Positions 173 through 14,641 of a DNA stretch of 14,641 bases are shown here, one piece after another. The position numbers and the translations under genes are program-made. Numbering within the stretch: position 1 is the stretch's first letter; every line of letters begins with the position of its first letter. Under the pieces are notes generated by a model. The model did not search any database and was not told the DNA's origin. It saw nothing but the letters and a program-made list of their open reading frames with translations. Source of the stretch: a virus (Duplodnaviria; Heunggongvirae; Uroviricota; Caudoviricetes); IMG/VR virus record IMGVR_UViG_2675903658_000001; one strand, 5' to 3'.

Positions 173-690
173 CGACCGCTCCCTGATAACAGACCGCCAT
201 CACGCAACTGCAGCCGGAGTTCATCCTGTGCCCCCTTGCGGGCCATGTCATACACCGCCTTCATCAGCTGCGACCCCGCCTGTCCGTTGATACCGTCGTT
301 CTGAATCACCACGTGATTGTTCTGATTAAAATTAATGCCTTCGGCCCGCCGCATCTGCGCCGGACTTCCGGCAGCACCCACATACCCCCCTTCCGCATAG
401 CCCCGCATCAGGCGGTACAGGTTCCCGACACCAATCCGGCTGGTTGCCTCCTTCGTGAAGACAAACTCCCCGCGGTGGACAATCCCCGCTGGCTCATATT
501 TGCCACCGGTTCCCGTAAATCCCCCGGTCGCGAAATGGAAGTTCGCCGCCGCAGCCTGAATGGCTGTACCGCCTGACGCTGATGCGCCGCCACCGGTAGC
601 CCCGCCAATGGCGCTGCCGATACTCCCGACAATCCCCACCATTGCCTGCTTAAGCAGAATTTCTGTCATCATGGATTTTTGTCGTGACAT
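169..690 (-). pseudogene. Tape measure protein H, C-terminal fragment (173-aa ORF equal to the last ~170 residues of H); likely remnant
   Basis: Six-frame ORF 169..690; the protein aligns with the C-terminus of the full H at 5796..8375 at roughly 93% identity, with no indels (1-675 colinear with 5628-6302). The ATG at 690-688 lies inside the 95-bp repeat and has no obvious Shine-Dalgarno. Confidence 0.7.
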
Positions 691-770
691 AAGAATAATT
701 ATCTATAGTTGATCTTCGTAACGCTCCCGCAGCTCCGCAACTCTGCGGGATTTTTTTATTCTTTTTACCC
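676..770 (+). repeat. Copy A of a ~95-bp element (candidate sRNA body plus terminator), direct repeat of 3350-3450
   Basis: Aligned by eye to 3350-3450 at roughly 85% identity. Both copies start at TTTTTGTCGTGA and end at GGGATTTTTTTATTCTTTTTACCC, and both begin (on the minus strand) exactly at the GGG-TAA that ends the upstream tail gene. Confidence 0.8.
725..765 (+). terminator. Intrinsic-terminator-like hairpin plus T-tract on the plus strand (copy A)
   Basis: Stem cccgcag (726-732) pairs with ctgcggg (743-749), 10-nt loop, followed by TTTTTTTATTCTTTTT (751-766). Confidence 0.55.
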
Positions 771-3101: not shown

Positions 3102-3204
3102 ACAGCCTTCCCCTGAATAAATTAACCGCCACTTGCCATTCCGTACAGAAGTCGGATATCCTTCGCCCGAAAAGCATGAAACACATTTCTGCCATGCTAA
3201 AGAG

Positions 3205-3240
3205 AAACCCCGGTATCAGCAGATACCGGGGTTTTCTTTC
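3205..3240. terminator. Bidirectional intrinsic-terminator-like hairpin in the I-J intergenic insert
   Basis: Perfect 10-bp stem ccccggtatc (3208-3217) / gataccgggg (3222-3231) with loop agca, flanked by AAA on the 5' side and TTTTCTTTC on the 3' side, so it is followed by a U-rich tract on both strands. Confidence 0.65.
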
Positions 3241-3306: not shown

Positions 3307-3334
3307 TTCACAAACTGACTGTGGCGCGTATAAT
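3307..3334 (+). promoter_or_regulatory. Near-consensus sigma70 promoter, antisense to the tail operon
   Basis: -35 TTCACA (3307-3312), 16-bp spacer, perfect -10 TATAAT (3329-3334); predicted start near 3341. It lies in the AT-rich insert, not in coding sequence. Confidence 0.55.
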
Positions 3335-3340
3335 TTCTCT

Positions 3341-3440
3341 GCGTTAATTTTTTTGTCGTGATATAAGAATAATTCCTTACACTTAATCTTCGTAACTCTC
3401 CCGCAGTTCCTGTCCGCGATCACTGCGGGATTTTTTTATT
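3341..3440 (+). ncRNA. Candidate ~100-nt small RNA, antisense to the 3' end of gene I
   Basis: Runs from the predicted start to the intrinsic terminator: 9-bp stem tcccgcagt (3399-3407) / actgcggga (3422-3430) then TTTTTTT (3431-3437). No plausible ORF. The body is conserved in the second copy at 676-770. Confidence 0.45.
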
Positions 3441-3450
3441 CTTTTTACCC
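3350..3450 (+). repeat. Copy B of the ~95-bp element, direct repeat of 676-770
   Basis: See copy A. Here the element abuts the stop codon of I (TAA at 3447-3445 on the minus strand). Confidence 0.8.
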
Positions 3451-5799: not shown

Positions 5800-8375
5800 C
5801 CACCGCTCCCTGATAACATACCGCCATCACGCAACTGCAGCCGGAGTTCATCCTGTGCCCCCTTGCGGGCCATCTCATACACCGCTTTCATCAGCTGCGG
5901 CCCTGCCCGCCCGTTGGGGCCGTCGTTCTGAATCACCACGTGATTGTTCTGATTAAAATTAATGCCTTCCGCCCGCCGCATCTGCGCCGGACTTCCGGCA
6001 CCGCCGACATAACCACCTTCCGCATAGCCCCGCATCAGGCGGTACAGATTGCCGACACCAATCCGGCTGGTCGCCTCCTTCGTGAAGACAAACTCCCCGC
6101 GATGAACAATCCCCGCAGGTTCATATTTACCCCCCGTCCCCGTAAATCCCCCGGTCGCGAAATGGAAGTTCGCCGCCGCAGCCTGAATGGCCGTCCCCGT
6201 GGAGGCAGACGCACCACCACCGAAAGCACCGCCAATGGCGCTGCCGATACTCCCGACTATCCCCACCATCGCCTGCTTCAGAAAAATCTCTGTCAGCATG
6301 GACAGCACAGAACGGGTGAAACCACGCCAGTTCTGTTCGCTGCCGGTCAGCATCGCTGCCATATTCTGTGCAATACCGTCAAAGGTCTGCGTGGCAGCAC
6401 TTTTTACCTGCGACATACTGTCCGTGGCACTCTCTTCCCACTCACTCCAGCCGGACCTGAGGCCTGCCATCCAGTTCCCGCGAAGCAGGTCTTCAGCCGC
6501 CCAGGTCTTTTTCTGCTCTGACATGACGTTATTCAGCGCCAGCGGATTATCGCCATACTGTTCCTTCAGGCGCTGTTCTGTGGCTTCCCGTTCTGCCTGC
6601 CGGTCAGTCAGCCCCCGGCTTTTCGCATCAATGGCGGCCCGTTTTGCCCGTTGCTGCTGTGCGAATTTATCCGCCTGCTGCGCCAGCGCGTTCAGGCGCT
6701 CCTGATACGTAACCTTGTCGCCAAGTGCAGCCAGCTGGCGTTTGTACTCCAGCGTCTCATCTTTATGCGCCAGCAGGGATTTCTCCTGTGCAGACAGCTG
6801 GCGACGTTGCGCCGCCTCCTCCAGTACCGCGAACTGACTCTCCGCCTTCCACAAATCCCGGCGCTGCTGGCTGATTTTCTCATTCGCTCCGGCATGCTTC
6901 TCCAGCGTCCGGAGTTCTGCCTGAAGCGTCAGCAGGGCAGCATGAGCACTGTCTTCCTGACGATCGCCCGCAGACACCTTCACGCCGGACTGTTTCGGCT
7001 TTTTCAGCGTCGCTTCATAGTCCTTTTTCGCCGCCGCCATCAGCGTGTTGTAATCCGCCTGCAGGATTTTCCCGTCTTTCAGGGCCTTATTCAGCTCTTC
7101 CTGCCGGTCAGTATATTTCTCCAGTGGCGTCAGCAGACGCTCATACGCCTTCTGCGCCTCTCCGGTATACTTCAGCTGTGACGCCTCACGCTCAGCCCGG
7201 TCCCTTGCCGCCAGTTCACCGGCTTTTTCCATATCCGACTGCAGCGTGGCCGCTGCCAGACCCAGACGGGCATTTTCCCGGTCATCCCATGCCCCCTGAA
7301 GGTTCGCACGAAAAGAGGAGGTCTTTCCCCGGCGCTGGCTCCGGCTCTGGTACCACTGCCATTTTTTATCCGCCTCATCAAATGCCTTCTGCGCACTGGC
7401 GAGCATATCCGCTGAGGATTCCGGACGACCGATATCCAGAATGGCATCCCACATCGATTTGAATGCCTTCCCTGTTTTATCCGCCCAGGTCTCCAGTGTT
7501 CCCATGTTTTCTTTCAGGCGACGGGTCTGCTCATCAAAGCCTTTCGTGGCGATATCGTTCGCCGCCTGTAAGGCTCCGGCCTCGTCTCCGGAACGCTGCA
7601 GTTGTGCAACATACGCAATCTGCTCTGCCGTCACGTTACGAAACTGGCGCGCCATCGCCATCAGTCCCGACGTCGGGTCAGTGGTCAGCTTCCCGAAGGC
7701 TTCAGCGACTTTATCCACCTCCACACCGGATGCAGACGCAAAACGCGCGACACTCTGGTTGATGGCATCAAACTGTTCACCACCACGCACACCGGCATTC
7801 ACCAGGGCTGCCAGTGACTCTCTCGCCTGGTTAAACGTCAGCCCTGCTGCCTGCCCGGCTCTTGAGAGAGTCAGCATACGATCGGCAGTCAGTCCGGACT
7901 GATTACCGGAAAGAACCAGGGTTTTATTAAACGCTGAAAGCGTGGAATCTCCCTGGTACCAGGCGTACACCAGCGCACCTGTCGCCACCGCCAGCGAGGT
8001 GACCCCGACCATCGGCAGGGTGATCGCACCGGCAAGCCCCCTGAACATGGGGATCATCCCGCCGAAGGAGTCCTTCACCTGACCGCCCTGTTGCAGCAGG
8101 ATCAGCCAGGGATTCTGACCACCGGCAAGCTGCGTGGCGATATCCGTAAACTGTGCGGGCAGGGTTCGCATGGCCGCTTTATACTGCCCGACGGAAATCC
8201 CTGCTTTTTGTGCAGCCAGCGCCTGGCGGCTCAGGCCCTGTTCAACAGCACTGGCGGTTTTTCTGGCGTCGGTATCCAGACCTGAAAAATGACGCCTTAC
8301 CCGGCTCATCTGCTCATCGAAACGGACAGCATCCAGACTAAGGTCAATAACAAGATCACCAACCGGCTGGGACAT
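5796..8375 (-). CDS. H: Tail tape measure protein H
   Basis: 859-aa ORF, MSQPVGDLVIDLSLDAVRFDEQMSRVRRHFSG..., lambda H-like (about 853 aa in lambda). RBS GGGAGG 8 nt upstream. Gly-rich hydrophobic C-terminal segment. Confidence 0.95.
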   Translation of the reverse strand: MSQPVGDLVIDLSLDAVRFDEQMSRVRRHFSGLDTDARKTASAVEQGLSRQALAAQKAGISVGQYKAAMRTLPAQFTDIATQLAGGQNPWLILLQQGGQVKDSFGGMIPMFRGLAGAITLPMVGVTSLAVATGALVYAWYQGDSTLSAFNKTLVLSGNQSGLTADRMLTLSRAGQAAGLTFNQARESLAALVNAGVRGGEQFDAINQSVARFASASGVEVDKVAEAFGKLTTDPTSGLMAMARQFRNVTAEQIAYVAQLQRSGDEAGALQAANDIATKGFDEQTRRLKENMGTLETWADKTGKAFKSMWDAILDIGRPESSADMLASAQKAFDEADKKWQWYQSRSQRRGKTSSFRANLQGAWDDRENARLGLAAATLQSDMEKAGELAARDRAEREASQLKYTGEAQKAYERLLTPLEKYTDRQEELNKALKDGKILQADYNTLMAAAKKDYEATLKKPKQSGVKVSAGDRQEDSAHAALLTLQAELRTLEKHAGANEKISQQRRDLWKAESQFAVLEEAAQRRQLSAQEKSLLAHKDETLEYKRQLAALGDKVTYQERLNALAQQADKFAQQQRAKRAAIDAKSRGLTDRQAEREATEQRLKEQYGDNPLALNNVMSEQKKTWAAEDLLRGNWMAGLRSGWSEWEESATDSMSQVKSAATQTFDGIAQNMAAMLTGSEQNWRGFTRSVLSMLTEIFLKQAMVGIVGSIGSAIGGAFGGGASASTGTAIQAAAANFHFATGGFTGTGGKYEPAGIVHRGEFVFTKEATSRIGVGNLYRLMRGYAEGGYVGGAGSPAQMRRAEGINFNQNNHVVIQNDGPNGRAGPQLMKAVYEMARKGAQDELRLQLRDGGMLSGSGG

Positions 8376-11362: not shown

Positions 11363-11671
11363 TTACGTCAGTTCAACGGGACGGCCTGTCTCCGGGCAAT
11401 ACCCCATTACTTGCAGGCACTTCCGTCCCCGGACGGCTTTAACATCATCCGGAGCATCCGTGTTGTTCAACTGCTCACCATCGTCTGTGTGATTTTGATC
11501 AGCCCCGCTCTCATCAGAGTGCATAATGCCCTCCGGGGAAACAGCAAGCTCCTCTTCCCACTCAGACACACGTTGAGCAATATCCGCAGCACTCCCCGAC
11601 ATATCCGCCTCGCGCCCCAGCAGGCCAGCCAGTTGACGAAGACGATTCAGATTTTCTTCTTTTGTTGCCAT
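11363..11671 (-). CDS. FI: DNA-packaging / head assembly protein FI
   Basis: Start reassigned to the second Met of track ORF 11363..11704 (MATKEENLNRLRQ...), which has a strong SD AGGAGG 5 nt upstream. The upstream ATG lies inside the terminator hairpin loop. Acidic middle region as in lambda FI. Confidence 0.85.
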   Translation of the reverse strand: MATKEENLNRLRQLAGLLGREADMSGSAADIAQRVSEWEEELAVSPEGIMHSDESGADQNHTDDGEQLNNTDAPDDVKAVRGRKCLQVMGYCPETGRPVELT

Positions 11672-11683
11672 CTCAGCCTCCTG

Positions 11684-11716
11684 TGAAAAAAGACACGGGG
11701 GCATTTCGCCCCCGCT
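11684..11716 (-). terminator. Intrinsic-terminator-like hairpin between E and FI (candidate attenuator)
   Basis: On the minus-strand RNA: 7-bp GC stem (11696-11702 / 11708-11714) with a 5-nt loop, then UGUCUUUUUUCA (11695-11684), then the FI SD. Confidence 0.5.
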
Positions 11717-11722
11717 CCCGGA

Positions 11723-12751
11723 TTATTTCACCTGTACCACCACAAACTCATCCGGATCCGGCAGCACCATCAGCGGTGCGGACTGCGTCATGGTGAATTC
11801 ACGGGCCGGATCGCCCACAGTCAGCCAGTGTTTCGGATAACGGGAAGAGGCCACCACACCTTCGGACAACGCCTGCGCATCCTGAATGGCACCATAGCAA
11901 CGAATGCCCTCTGCTGCCGTATTCCCCAGGACCAGTGTGCCCTCCGGCAGATAACGTTTTTCGGTACCGTCCTCTGCCACATAAGACGTTTTCGCCACCA
12001 CAATGGCCAGATCGCCGTAATACCCCTTGAAGGACACCACTGCGCCCAGGTCTTTCACTGCCGTTTCGAGTTGTGAATTTGAGCCGCGACGGGTATCCAG
12101 TTTTTCGCGGAACAGCTTAAAGCCATTCAGCAGACGCCAGACCGTACCGTCCATAATGGCGATATTCACAAGGCCGCTGGCCTGATCGCAGTAGAGGTCA
12201 ATATCATGCGTCGGATCAAACGTATCACGGTCCTGCTCAGACCATTTTTTACCGTCAGCCTGCTCAATGTTATTTCCTTCAGAGCGCCCGAAATCCACCT
12301 CGACAGTATCAAACTGATCCCCTTCCATGGTGTATTTGCCATACAGCACGGCATTCACCGCCTGCATTTCTTCCACCTGGACAATGGCGTGCTCTTCCTG
12401 TTTGAGGTTATCGGTAATGATACGCAGACGACGGTAGGCTGGGTCGTTCAGCTGAGCCGGATCTTCACCAGGAAGGCGCTCAACCGCCTGCTGGTAATTA
12501 AATTCGTGTTTGGGCTTGACGTAGCCCGGACGTAACACGCGGGTTTCACCACCGCGATGGCGAAGCACTTTTCCTTCAACGATCGGGGAGACATAGGCCG
12601 CCACCGGCGTTTTTCCGGTAATTTTGTCCAGCATCACCTCTTCGGTGTGGAAATTCACCGTGCGGCGGAAAAACAGCTCCAGAAACAGCGCACGGAATTT
12701 AACTTTTTGTTCGGTATAACCGAGTAACTGGCGGGTCGTAAACAATCCCAT
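11723..12751 (-). CDS. E: Major capsid protein E
   Basis: 342-aa ORF, MGLFTTRQLLGYTEQKVKFRALFLELFFRR...SAPLMVLPDPDEFVVVQVK, lambda E-like (341 aa in lambda). RBS AGGA 8 nt upstream. Confidence 0.96.
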   Translation of the reverse strand: MGLFTTRQLLGYTEQKVKFRALFLELFFRRTVNFHTEEVMLDKITGKTPVAAYVSPIVEGKVLRHRGGETRVLRPGYVKPKHEFNYQQAVERLPGEDPAQLNDPAYRRLRIITDNLKQEEHAIVQVEEMQAVNAVLYGKYTMEGDQFDTVEVDFGRSEGNNIEQADGKKWSEQDRDTFDPTHDIDLYCDQASGLVNIAIMDGTVWRLLNGFKLFREKLDTRRGSNSQLETAVKDLGAVVSFKGYYGDLAIVVAKTSYVAEDGTEKRYLPEGTLVLGNTAAEGIRCYGAIQDAQALSEGVVASSRYPKHWLTVGDPAREFTMTQSAPLMVLPDPDEFVVVQVK

Positions 12752-12779: not shown

Positions 12780-12801
12780 TCAGGCCACCATGGTGGCCTG
12801 A
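12780..12801 (-). other. Perfect 22-bp palindrome in the D-E intergenic region (RNA hairpin or protein site)
   Basis: tcaggccaccatggtggcctga equals its own reverse complement; it sits about 28 nt upstream of the E start and 8 nt after the D stop. Confidence 0.5.
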
Positions 12802-12808
12802 TAACGTG

Positions 12809-13156
12809 TTACGGCAGCGCCGCGTGACTCAGGGCTGTACCGGCAAAGGCATTTGCCTTTTTGTGTTCATCCACACTGTCAGGCCAGCGGATTGCCTCCG
12901 TCGCAAAGGTCCCCGACTTGTAATAGGTCAGCACCGTCTCTGTGCCTTCAAGCGGCAGTACCAGTATGCCAACCGCACTACCGGCTTTCTGTCCATCCCA
13001 GACAACCAGTTTCCCGCTGGCTTCATCCAGCATCAGGGGCGTCAGTGCCGGTGTTGCCTGAGAAATCCCGCTGCTGCCTGTGGCGGTATGAGCCGGATCA
13101 TTACCGGCAAAAATACGTACTTCTGCACGTTGTTCAGTGATGGTTTTCGTTACCAT
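12809..13156 (-). CDS. D: Head decoration protein D
   Basis: 115-aa ORF containing NDPAHTATGSSG...TPLMLDEASGKLVVWDG...YKSGTF, lambda D-like. RBS GAGG 8 nt upstream. Confidence 0.93.
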   Translation of the reverse strand: MVTKTITEQRAEVRIFAGNDPAHTATGSSGISQATPALTPLMLDEASGKLVVWDGQKAGSAVGILVLPLEGTETVLTYYKSGTFATEAIRWPDSVDEHKKANAFAGTALSHAALP

Positions 13157-13795: not shown

Positions 13796-14641
13796 AGTGC
13801 CTCCTGTATCATGTGTGTTCAGCGCCGCAGCCATCACGCTGATGGCATCCGACGCATTGATTAATTCATCCGCCAGCCCGGCCTCAATGCCGGACTGACC
13901 TTCAAAAACGGCGGCCTCTGTTCCCGTGACTGCATCAACAGACAGACCGGTATACATCGCCACTTTTTCGGCAAACATCCGGCGCGCCGCATCAATCCGC
14001 TGCTGCATGTCCTGGCGAACCTCTTCCGGCAACGCTTCAAACTGATTGCCATCCACCTTGTGCGCCCCTGAGTAAATCAGCGTGATATCCACACCGGCCT
14101 GCGCCAGATGACCGGCATAGCTGACATGGCTCATCATCACGCCAATGGAGCCGATACGGGATGTCTGGGTAACCAGCCGTCGGGAGCAGGCCGACGCCAG
14201 CAGCATGGCTGCAGAACAGGCCGTGTCATTGCACAGTGCCCAGACCGGCTTCTGCTGACGGAGTCGGTAAATCATGTCAGCACAGTCAAACGCACCGGCG
14301 GCCTGCCCGCCCGGACTGTCAATGTCCAGCAGTACACCCCGCACCTGGCTATCCGCCATTGCCTGCTGAAGACAGGCGACAATGCCGTCATAGCCTGTCA
14401 TTCCGGAAAATGGCCGCATACCCCCCAGCCGGTGCACCAGCGTGCCTGTCACCGGCAGTACAGCAATACCGTTCACCACCCGGTAAACACGGGCCGGTCG
14501 TTTACCTCCGGCCATGTACTCGTCCGTTTCAGCCAGCATTCCGGGAGCATCAAGCTGTACCTGCTGTTGTGGTACCGAAAGACTTGCTGCCCCCATCTCG
14601 CGCCCGAGCGCGCAAAAGAAAACCCGCGCATAGGCGGGCTC
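13193..14641 (-). CDS. C: Capsid assembly protease C (S49/ClpP-like), 5' end beyond the right edge of the window
   Basis: The frame is open to the window edge; the upstream codons read EPAYARVFFCAL, matching lambda C near residue 25. The body has a lambda C-like core (VNGIAVLPVTG...VWALCNDTACSAAMLLASA...). Confidence 0.92.
   Translation of the reverse strand, partial: EPAYARVFFCALGREMGAASLSVPQQQVQLDAPGMLAETDEYMAGGKRPARVYRVVNGIAVLPVTGTLVHRLGGMRPFSGMTGYDGIVACLQQAMADSQVRGVLLDIDSPGGQAAGAFDCADMIYRLRQQKPVWALCNDTACSAAMLLASACSRRLVTQTSRIGSIGVMMSHVSYAGHLAQAGVDITLIYSGAHKVDGNQFEALPEEVRQDMQQRIDAARRMFAEKVAMYTGLSVDAVTGTEAAVFEGQSGIEAGLADELINASDAISVMAAALNTHDTGGTMPQLTATEAAAQENQRVMGILTCQEAKGREHLATMLAGQQGMSVEQARAILTAAAPQQPVASTQSEADRIMACEEAKGREQLAATLAAMPEMTVEKARPILAAAPLADAGPSLRDQIMALDEAKGAEAQAEKLAAFPGMTVEAARDILSSSPDKAEPVSASTTALFEHFMANHSPAAVQGGVSQTSEDGDADVKMLMAMP
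13313..13762 (-). repeat. Three tandem, diverged ~48-codon repeats within the C/Nu3 C-terminal region
   Basis: The protein repeats share the motif EAKGRE.LA..LA..P.MTVE.AR.IL.AAP (ILTCQEAKGREHLATMLAGQQGMSVEQARAILTAAAP / IMACEEAKGREQLAATLAAMPEMTVEKARPILAAAP / IMALDEAKGAEAQAEKLAAFPGMTVEAARDILSSSP). Lambda has one copy as I recall. Confidence 0.7.

What the first reader, a model, noticed from the sequence alone, without database searches (positions are those of the whole stretch)
11684..11716. Terminator-like hairpin between the major capsid gene and FI
Immediately after the E stop there is a 7-bp GC stem with a U6 tract, followed directly by the FI SD and ATG. An intrinsic terminator here would act as a partial attenuator, consistent with the high E to FI stoichiometry. 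The spurious upstream ATG of the track's FI ORF lies inside this hairpin loop, which supports the shorter start at 11671.
Basis: seen in the sequence. Interest (0 to 1): 0.4.

Follow-up and report, generated by a model that had tools for sequence, protein, structure and literature searches.

The report
Conserved terminator-like hairpin after capsid gene
A short, very stable RNA hairpin followed by a run of U sits between the major capsid gene and the next gene of this lambda-like prophage; relatives keep a hairpin at the same spot even though its sequence differs completely, so it is a real, selected element of an ordinary and already recognised kind whose exact job has never been measured.

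Summary
All genes are on the minus strand. Seven nt after the E stop (11725-11723) there is an 8-bp stem (7 G-C plus 1 G.U; 11715-11708 with 11702-11695) and a GAAAU loop. GUC, U6 (11691-11686), the FI Shine-Dalgarno AGGAGG (11682-11677) and the ATG at 11671 follow.

It is the strongest terminator-like site in the window. It forms with probability 0.88-1.0 in 120-500 nt contexts.

The main new result is comparative. All 16 sequence-distinct E-to-FI junctions examined (phage 21, lambda, N15, phi80, prophages of Providencia, Serratia, Trabulsiella and E. whittamii, among others) have a GC hairpin there, with unrelated sequences. Within the window's own family every stem change keeps pairing on the mRNA strand only. 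About 12 of 16 have a U-rich tail and 3 have none. A sister hairpin follows gene D.

GenBank already annotates the N15 equivalent as a putative rho-independent terminator. Casjens and co-authors note that such intra-late-operon terminators have unknown roles.

Late transcription in these phages is Q-antiterminated. The "partial attenuator that sets E:FI stoichiometry" reading is therefore only partly supported. A combined role as a weak terminator and a 3'-end protector is more likely.

The FI start at 11671 is well supported. This is ordinary and of low-to-moderate interest.

The parts
11723..12751 (-). Major capsid protein gene E (342 aa); stop TAA at 11725-11723
   Evidence: ORF list; Pfam PF03864 Phage_cap_E, E=1.2e-66, full length; 98.8% DNA identity to PhiR12_2_star 'major capsid protein E' and about 90% to phage 21 gene 7
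11708..11715 (-). 5' arm of the hairpin, GCGGGGGC
   Evidence: Sequence; fold; pair probabilities 0.88-1.0
11703..11707 (-). Loop GAAAU; its last two bases plus the first stem G form the spurious in-frame ATG at 11704-11702
   Evidence: The loop varies freely among relatives (GAUAU, GGAAU, UAAAU)
11695..11702 (-). 3' arm of the hairpin, GCCCCCGU
   Evidence: 100% of 167 cells are paired in 21 family variants, with one compensatory G-C to A-U change and a G.U intermediate
11686..11694 (-). GUC spacer (11694-11692) and U6 tract (11691-11686)
   Evidence: The tract is nearly invariant in the family alignment A1. U-rich tails follow the hairpin in about 12 of 16 lineages
11677..11682 (-). Shine-Dalgarno AGGAGG of FI, 5 nt upstream of the ATG
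   Evidence: Sequence; the phage 21 record annotates the equivalent ribosome binding site
11363..11671 (-). FI (DNA-packaging protein) from ATG 11671. It is cut short here by a TTA to TAA nonsense change at 11365-11363 (102 aa instead of 127)
   Evidence: Pfam PF14000 Packaging_FI; start agrees with PGAP, PhiR12 and phage 21; nonsense codon from alignment A2 and (59 relatives with TTA, 1 with TAA)
12780..12801 (-). Sister element: a 9-bp hairpin UCAGGCCAC-CAUG-GUGGCCUGA, 7 nt after the D stop, with tail CUGAUUUCUG, upstream of the E start at 12751
   Evidence: pair probabilities 0.92-1.0; a hairpin sits at the D-E junction in 12 of 13 lineages, including a canonical GCCGC-CUGU-GCGGC-U7 in lambda

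Best explanation
This is an intrinsic-terminator-type RNA stem-loop on the late mRNA, placed at the 3' boundary of the major-capsid cistron and kept there by selection for structure.

Proposed working:
1. The GC hairpin forms as soon as the sequence leaves the polymerase.
2. On polymerase that does not carry the Q antiterminator, and on a minority of Q-modified complexes, hairpin plus U tract releases the transcript about 7-9 nt past the stem, near 11686.
3. On read-through transcripts the same hairpin stops 3'-to-5' exonucleases that enter after cleavage in the less translated downstream cistrons.

Either route produces or preserves RNA that ends just after E. A sister hairpin does the same just after D. 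The message for the two most abundant head proteins therefore outlasts or outnumbers the message for FI and the tail genes. FI is translated independently from its own strong SD, 13 nt past the U tract.

Shown here: the structure, its strand, its conservation, the U-rich tail in most lineages and the FI start. Inferred: termination, the decay barrier and any effect on protein ratios.
For: - The hairpin is the best terminator-like site in the window. It is very stable and context-independent.
- All 16 sequence-distinct E-to-FI junctions have a GC hairpin 0-17 nt after the stop and 7-23 nt before the FI ATG, with unrelated stem sequences.
- Such stems occur in only 0.03-4.5% of same-length windows of each locus (12 junctions tested). 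Fisher combination of whole-intergenic MFE percentiles gives p=2e-7.
- Within the window's family, 5 of 8 pairs vary and all 167 cells stay paired. Four changes are C to U, giving G.U or U.G. One is a full G-C to A-U swap with the G.U intermediate present. These wobble pairs would be A-C mismatches on the other strand, so the structure is read on the mRNA strand.
- Lambda versus N15/phi80 shows an A-U to G-C swap at the stem base.
- U makes up 59% of the 8 nt after the stem, against about 20-25% background.
- The plus-strand version has no T tract after it.
- The N15 record annotates the positional equivalent as a putative rho-independent terminator.
- Hairpins in the head region are intergenic only after D and E.
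Against: - No experimental 3'-end, RNA-seq or half-life data could be consulted.
- Late transcription is Q-antiterminated, so termination should be weak. From memory: the Q21 'nozzle' structure of Yin et al. 2019, which PMC8022706 cites.
- U6 is separated from the stem by GUC. The stem ends in GU rather than the GC of the GC(U)7RU motif.
- Three lineages lack a U tract, which argues against termination as the universal function.
- The U-rich tails in the other lineages are not needed for a pure decay barrier.
- The stop codon lies only 7 nt from the stem, so a terminating or coupled ribosome would melt the 5' arm.
- Attenuation after D would lower E message relative to D, although the two proteins are needed about 1:1.
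Confidence: 0.55

Rival explanations
1. It is an insulator against unprogrammed transcription. On this view it is a genuine terminator whose only selected role is to stop polymerases that lack Q. These could be spurious starts inside the head genes or read-in during lysogeny. It would be silent during normal Q-driven late transcription and have no effect on the E:FI ratio.
For: - Terminator-like anatomy with a U-rich tail in most lineages.
- Q-modified polymerase ignores terminators.
- This is one of the two possibilities offered for intra-late-operon terminators in PMC8022706.
Against: - It does not explain why the hairpins sit precisely after D and E in lineage after lineage rather than at module borders.
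- It does not explain why three lineages keep a hairpin with no U tract.
Confidence: 0.15
2. It is a translational insulator or context element. The hairpin would not act on transcription or decay. It would uncouple FI translation from the very heavy ribosome traffic on E by blocking re-initiation or scanning from the E stop. It could also lock the upstream sequence into a local fold, so that the U-rich single strand and the SD of FI are presented in a constant context.
For: - The hairpin always lies between the E stop and the FI SD, 7-23 nt before the ATG.
- It persists in the lineages with no U tract, where the SD follows the stem directly (L008, L111, L103).
- It swallows the stray in-frame start codons.
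- The pyrimidine-rich tail could serve as a ribosome (S1) landing site. This last point is an inference.
Against: - There is no direct evidence.
- Predicted SD accessibility changes with the context folded and is not clearly improved by the hairpin.
- The strong U enrichment right after the stem is the signature of terminators.
Confidence: 0.15
3. It has no function. On this view it is a chance GC palindrome inherited with the module, or a DNA-level or protein-binding site rather than an RNA structure.
For: - The shuffle z-score of the 61-nt segment alone is only -1.77.
- Variation within the immediate family is small, and the covariation shuffle control is weak (50 of 500 shuffles reach the observed value).
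Against: - Hairpins with unrelated sequences sit at the same junction in all 16 junctions examined.
- All stem substitutions keep RNA pairing through G.U on the sense strand only.
- Sliding the 3' partners drops pairing from 100% to 49-74%.
Confidence: 0.05

Closest known systems
Phage N15 stem_loop 7053-7073 between gene 8 (major head protein) and gene 9 (FI homologue), annotated 'putative rho-indep. transcription terminator' (GenBank AF064539)
   Same: Same position (after the E-family capsid gene and before the FI homologue), same strand, a 7-bp GC stem with a 4-nt loop and a pyrimidine-rich tail running into the SD.
   Different: The stem sequence is unrelated (GUGGCCC/GGGCCAC versus GCGGGGGC/GCCCCCGU). 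The N15 tail, CUUUCUGG, is a poorer U tract than the window's U6. The N15 annotation is a prediction, not a measurement.
Lambda E-FI junction hairpin (J02459 7163-7180, AUGGCCC-UUCG-GGGCCAU) and lambda D-E hairpin (GCCGC-CUGU-GCGGC-U7)
   Same: The gene order D-hairpin-E-hairpin-FI is the same. The hairpin starts 2 nt after the E stop and ends 21 nt before the FI ATG. An in-frame ATG is buried in the stem.
   Different: The sequence is different. Lambda's E-FI tail, UGUUUCUC, is weaker than the window's. Neither hairpin is annotated in the lambda record.
Intra-late-operon terminator after the procapsid gene module of P22-like phage L (PMC8022706)
   Same: It is a predicted rho-independent terminator inside a single-promoter, antiterminated lambdoid late operon, directly after the capsid-protein module. 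The authors state that the roles of such terminators are not known and propose partial termination or stopping spurious transcription.
   Different: The capsid protein family is different (P22 type) and there is no sequence relation. It was not examined here at sequence level.
Terminators and stabiliser hairpins after major-subunit genes in other polycistronic systems (T7 T-phi after gene 10; papA in the pap pilus operon; the malE-malF intercistronic hairpin). Cited from general knowledge, not tested here
   Same: The logic is the same: a stable hairpin after the most abundantly needed cistron, with read-through to the genes needed in smaller amounts.
   Different: Those systems are not transcribed by a Q-type terminator-resistant polymerase. 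Their activity has been measured, whereas here it has not.

Membership tests
Intrinsic (rho-independent) transcription terminator | GC-rich stem-loop (stem of about 5-14 bp, loop of 3-8 nt) on the transcribed strand | tested here: met
   8-bp stem with 7 G-C pairs, 5-nt loop, -16.8 kcal/mol
Intrinsic (rho-independent) transcription terminator | U-rich tract directly 3' of the stem | tested here: met
   GUCUUUUUU: 6 U in the first 8 nt, but the U6 run starts 3 nt after the core stem. If the bulged 12-pair stem forms, only UUUU follows it
Intrinsic (rho-independent) transcription terminator | Bubble-edge motif GC(U)7RU (G-C as the last two stem bases, RU at the release site), per the Battaglia et al. 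2026 preprint | tested here: not met
   The core stem ends in GU and the tail is GUCUUUUUUCA. Only a C before the U run and an A near the end match. The criterion comes from one preprint, so it lowers the expected efficiency rather than excluding membership
Intrinsic (rho-independent) transcription terminator | Transcript 3' ends and release at the site, in vivo or in vitro | not testable with these tools
   No Term-seq or RNA-seq data are accessible. EHEC Sakai Term-seq exists (PMC7547250) but could not be read
Intercistronic mRNA-stabilising hairpin (3' exonuclease barrier) | Stable hairpin in the spacer downstream of the more highly expressed cistron, conserved as a structure rather than a sequence | tested here: met
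   Hairpin in all 16 sequence-distinct junctions with unrelated sequences. Compensatory and wobble changes. Hairpins follow D and E only
Intercistronic mRNA-stabilising hairpin (3' exonuclease barrier) | Longer half-life or higher abundance of the upstream segment, dependent on the hairpin | not testable with these tools
   Needs rifampicin-chase RNA measurements on stem mutants
Positional homologue of the N15 / lambda E-FI hairpin | Lies between an E-family (PF03864) capsid gene and an FI-family (PF14000) gene, on the same strand | tested here: met
   Pfam hits; junction comparison
Positional homologue of the N15 / lambda E-FI hairpin | Alignable sequence similarity of the hairpin itself | tested here: not met
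   BLAST matches to lambda and N15 stop inside E (query positions 10-128 of 301). The stems differ completely
Any curated Rfam RNA family | Match at or above the gathering score | tested here: not met
   0 matches in the whole window, both strands

The most novel reading that the evidence does not exclude
The hairpins after D and E would be a conserved, Q-proof device of lambda-type head modules. On this reading they do not terminate the antiterminated late transcript. They act afterwards as decay barriers that give the two 400-copy head proteins a longer-lived message than the rest of the roughly 20-kb operon. The U tracts would be retained only for back-up termination of unmodified polymerase. 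This would give a concrete, testable answer to the 'roles are not known' remark about intra-late-operon terminators (PMC8022706).
Probability: 0.3. Interest if true: 0.45.

Novelty: new member of a known kind. Interest (0 to 1): 0.3.

Why it matters
Lambda's late operon is the textbook case of one long antiterminated transcript whose products are needed in amounts that differ by orders of magnitude. Terminator-shaped hairpins inside such an operon look paradoxical, and phage genomicists have explicitly flagged them as unexplained.

This work shows that a hairpin is kept at the E-FI junction, and another at D-E, across every lineage examined despite complete sequence turnover. That turns a stray prediction into a defined target for a simple mutational test.

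There is also a practical point. The hairpin hides in-frame start codons that annotation pipelines sometimes pick for FI (phi80, Chlobot and the ORF track of this window), so recognising it corrects gene starts. Beyond that the element is ordinary.

Tried and rejected
1. Rfam, whole window at gathering threshold: nothing.
2. A d'Aubenton-Carafa-type terminator score written from memory. The values depend on which stem boundary is chosen and on modern energy parameters, so I do not rely on them.
3. Whole-intergenic MFE percentile is a blunt measure. I replaced it with a contiguous-stem criterion.
4. A third minus-strand hairpin at 14641-14620 looked like a portal-to-C junction element. However, the frame of the C/Nu3 ORF is open to the window end, and phage 21 and PhiR12 C is 501 aa, so the hairpin lies inside coding sequence. 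Dropped.
5. Is the upstream in-frame ATG or GTG inside the hairpin (window, lambda, phi80, Trabulsiella, one Providencia copy) a real extended FI start, or is there an E-FI read-through fusion (E and FI are in frame here and in N15)? Rejected. Intergenic length varies (50, 51, 52 nt) within the family, and many lineages have no such codon.
6. RNase III site: the stem is too short. This is an inference and was not tested.
7. Literature: Liu et al. 2013 (lambda ribosome profiling), Casjens & Hendrix 2015 and Sampson et al. 1988 are not held. Seven full-text searches found no 3'-end mapping of a lambda-type late operon.
8. The search for related loci with single proteins returned mostly near-identical loci. 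Diversity came from genome contigs and the annotated phage records instead.

Full report
**What is there**

The window is the head and tail late-gene block of a lambda/phage-21-type prophage, with all genes on the minus strand. The order is C/Nu3 (runs off the window end), D (12809-13156), E (11723-12751), FI (from 11671), FII, Z, U, V, G/T, H, M, L, K, I and a truncated J. The E-FI region is 98.8% identical to Escherichia phage PhiR12_2_star and about 90% identical to phage 21. The module occurs in 1559 of 5426 complete E. coli genomes, with a best identity of 98.4%.

Read on the minus strand, the junction is:

UAA(11725-11723) UCCGGGA GCGGGGGC GAAAU GCCCCCGU GUC UUUUUU CAC AGGAGG CUGAG AUG(11671).

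- The stem has 8 pairs (7 G-C plus a G.U).
- It begins 7 nt after the stop.
- U6 is offset from the stem by GUC.

**Is it more than chance?**

It is the top terminator-like site of the whole window. The scan gave 24 sites against 11.2 ± 3.6 in shuffles. The core hairpin is -16.8 kcal/mol, and its pairs have probability 0.88-1.0 whether 120, 300 or 500 nt are folded. The shuffle z-score of the 61-nt piece alone is only -1.77. The decisive evidence is therefore comparative.

**Comparative evidence**

I collected E-to-FI junctions from:
- annotated phages: lambda, phage 21, N15, phi80, Chlobot, ev207, PhiR63_1 and an Enterobacter phage;
- bacterial genomes: E. albertii, E. coli, Shigella, Providencia, Trabulsiella, Serratia and E. 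whittamii;
- viral contigs.

The capsid proteins range from 54% to 100% identity to the window's. Sixteen sequence-distinct junctions emerged, and every one has a GC hairpin between the E stop and the FI start. The hairpins begin 0-17 nt after the stop and end 7-23 nt before the ATG, with stems that share no sequence. Examples:

| Lineage | Hairpin |
|---|---|
| lambda | AUGGCCC-UUCG-GGGCCAU |
| N15 | GUGGCCC-AUUC-GGGCCAC |
| Providencia | CGGCGGG-GAAA-CCCGCCG |
| Trabulsiella | GCACCACGGUC-UGUAAU-GGCCGUGGUGC |
| E. whittamii type | AAGAGCC-GAAA-GGCUCUU |

In each of the 12 loci tested, a stem at least as good is found in only 0.03-4.5% of same-length windows on the sense strand. A blunter test, the whole-intergenic MFE percentile combined by Fisher's method, gives p=2e-7. 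The lineages are not fully independent, so these numbers show direction and are not exact probabilities.

Within the window's own family there are 25 distinct intergenic variants among 209 copies. Twenty-one distinct variants were aligned. All 167 stem cells form standard pairs, and five of the eight pairs vary:
- Four vary by C to U, giving G.U or U.G.
- One is a complete G-C to A-U exchange (L005/L006), with the G.U intermediate also present (L117).

Sliding the 3' partners by 1-3 columns drops pairing to 49-74%. No uncompensated G-to-A change or transversion was seen in the stem, while the loop, the SD region and position 5 vary freely. G.U pairs would be A-C mismatches on the complementary strand, so the structure is maintained on the mRNA strand. 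The plus-strand version also has no T run after it.

**Terminator or just a hairpin?**

U makes up 59% of the 8 nt after the stem across the 16 lineages, against roughly 20-25% background. About 12 of 16 have at least 4 U in 8. Terminator-like anatomy is therefore the rule. Three lineages (Trabulsiella L008, L103, L111) keep a strong hairpin with no U tract, and the SD follows almost at once. In lambda, N15 and phi80 the tail is mediocre.

A 2026 preprint reports that efficient intrinsic terminators need GC(U)7RU. The window's site (stem end GU, tail GUCUUUUUUCA) matches that motif poorly. The lambda D-E hairpin (GC-U7-AC) matches it almost perfectly.

**A sister element**

The only other intergenic hairpin of the head region follows D. 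It lies at 12801-12780, has 9 pairs, again starts 7 nt after the stop, and has pair probabilities of 0.92-1.0. A hairpin, usually with a clean U run, sits at the D-E junction in 12 of 13 lineages examined. Other late-gene junctions in the window are overlaps or gaps of 5-36 nt with no structure. So the two most abundant head proteins are each followed by a terminator-shaped hairpin.

**What is already known**

The N15 GenBank record annotates the equivalent stem-loop (7053-7073, between the major head gene 8 and the FI homologue gene 9) as a "putative rho-indep. transcription terminator". The lambda and phage 21 records carry no such feature.

For P22-like phage L, Zaworski et al. (PMC8022706) note a predicted terminator at the end of the procapsid module, inside the single-promoter late operon. 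[quoted passage not shown] They suggest partial termination, or stopping transcription that started without antitermination.

Late transcription in lambdoid phages depends on Q-mediated antitermination from pR'. I could not obtain the lambda ribosome-profiling paper, the Casjens-Hendrix review or Sampson et al. 1988. No paper with 3'-end mapping of a lambda-type late operon turned up.

**Most likely mechanism**

The shown facts are a sense-strand RNA hairpin of terminator type, under selection, at the 3' edge of the E cistron. I infer that it creates or preserves RNA ends just after E in two ways:
- It terminates polymerase that lacks Q, and perhaps a small fraction of Q-modified polymerase.
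- It blocks 3'-to-5' exonucleases on read-through transcripts.

The U-rich tails argue that termination matters in most lineages. The U-less lineages and the Q context argue that the hairpin itself, as a decay barrier or a translational insulator, also matters.

As the sole explanation of E:FI stoichiometry, attenuation is weak for three reasons:
- Q-modified polymerase resists terminators.
- A terminator after D would reduce E relative to D, although both are needed about 1:1.
- From memory, Sampson et al. 1988 assigned lambda late-protein ratios chiefly to translation initiation.

I put 0.55 on the combined terminator and 3'-end-protector reading, 0.15 on a pure insulator against Q-less transcription, 0.15 on a purely translational role and 0.05 on no function.

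**FI start**

ATG 11671 has AGGAGG 5 nt upstream. PGAP, PhiR12 and the phage 21 authors all use it. The Pfam FI profile starts at residue 3 of that form.

The upstream ATG at 11704 straddles the loop and the 3' arm, and has no SD. It falls out of frame in family members with 50- or 52-nt spacers. The same trap exists elsewhere: phi80's FI is annotated from a GTG inside its hairpin, and Chlobot's from the ATG in the stem.

**Verdict**

The element is real, conserved and structurally selected. It is of a familiar kind and is already predicted in a relative. It is a new member of a known kind. Interest is low to moderate, mainly because its function inside an antiterminated operon remains unmeasured and is now easy to test.

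Noticed in passing
window 11363-11365 (minus strand): FI carries a premature stop. TTA (Leu) in PhiR12_2_star and in 59 of 60 related loci is TAA here. FI is therefore 102 aa instead of 127 aa, and a 67-nt untranslated gap precedes FII. This suggests a decaying prophage.
   Followed up: yes
window 12780-12801 (minus strand); L001 around 380-435 for lambda: A second terminator-like hairpin sits 7 nt after the D stop. It is conserved as a structure in 12 of 13 lineages. The lambda version (GCCGC-CUGU-GCGGC-U7-AC) is a near-perfect canonical terminator inside the late operon, yet it is not annotated in the lambda record.
   Followed up: partly
window 676-770 and 3350-3450: There is a direct repeat of about 95 nt (85-100% identity). 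One copy follows gene I. The other abuts the end of a J gene cut to 778 aa (its Ig_J_second domain is truncated) and supplies its stop codon. It looks like a recombination or deletion that removed the distal part of J.
   Followed up: partly
window 3307-3437 (plus strand): The 343-nt gap between I and J holds a near-consensus sigma-70 promoter (TTCACA-16-TATAAT, 11 of 12 matches) on the strand opposite to the late genes. About 75 nt downstream there is a clean terminator (UCCGCGAUCACUGCGGG-AU7). This is a candidate small RNA of about 95 nt. Part of it is duplicated at 676-770, with its own terminator at 734-749. There is no Rfam match.
   Followed up: partly
window 3204-3235: A perfect 13-14 bp palindrome (AAACCCCGGUAUC...GAUACCGGGGUUU) is flanked by A and T runs on both strands. 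It is a bidirectional terminator-like site in the I-J gap. Only noise-level Rfam matches were found.
   Followed up: partly
L119 839 (phi80 NC_021190) and L120 832 (Chlobot PP925838): Deposited annotations start FI at a GTG or ATG inside the post-capsid hairpin, 2-9 nt after the E stop. The SD-preceded ATG lies about 36-39 nt further downstream. These are probably over-extended gene calls.
   Followed up: yes
window 14620-14641 (minus strand): This terminator-like hairpin, reported by the scan, lies inside the C/Nu3 coding frame. That frame is open to the window end, and the homologues are 501 aa. It is not an intergenic element.
   Followed up: yes
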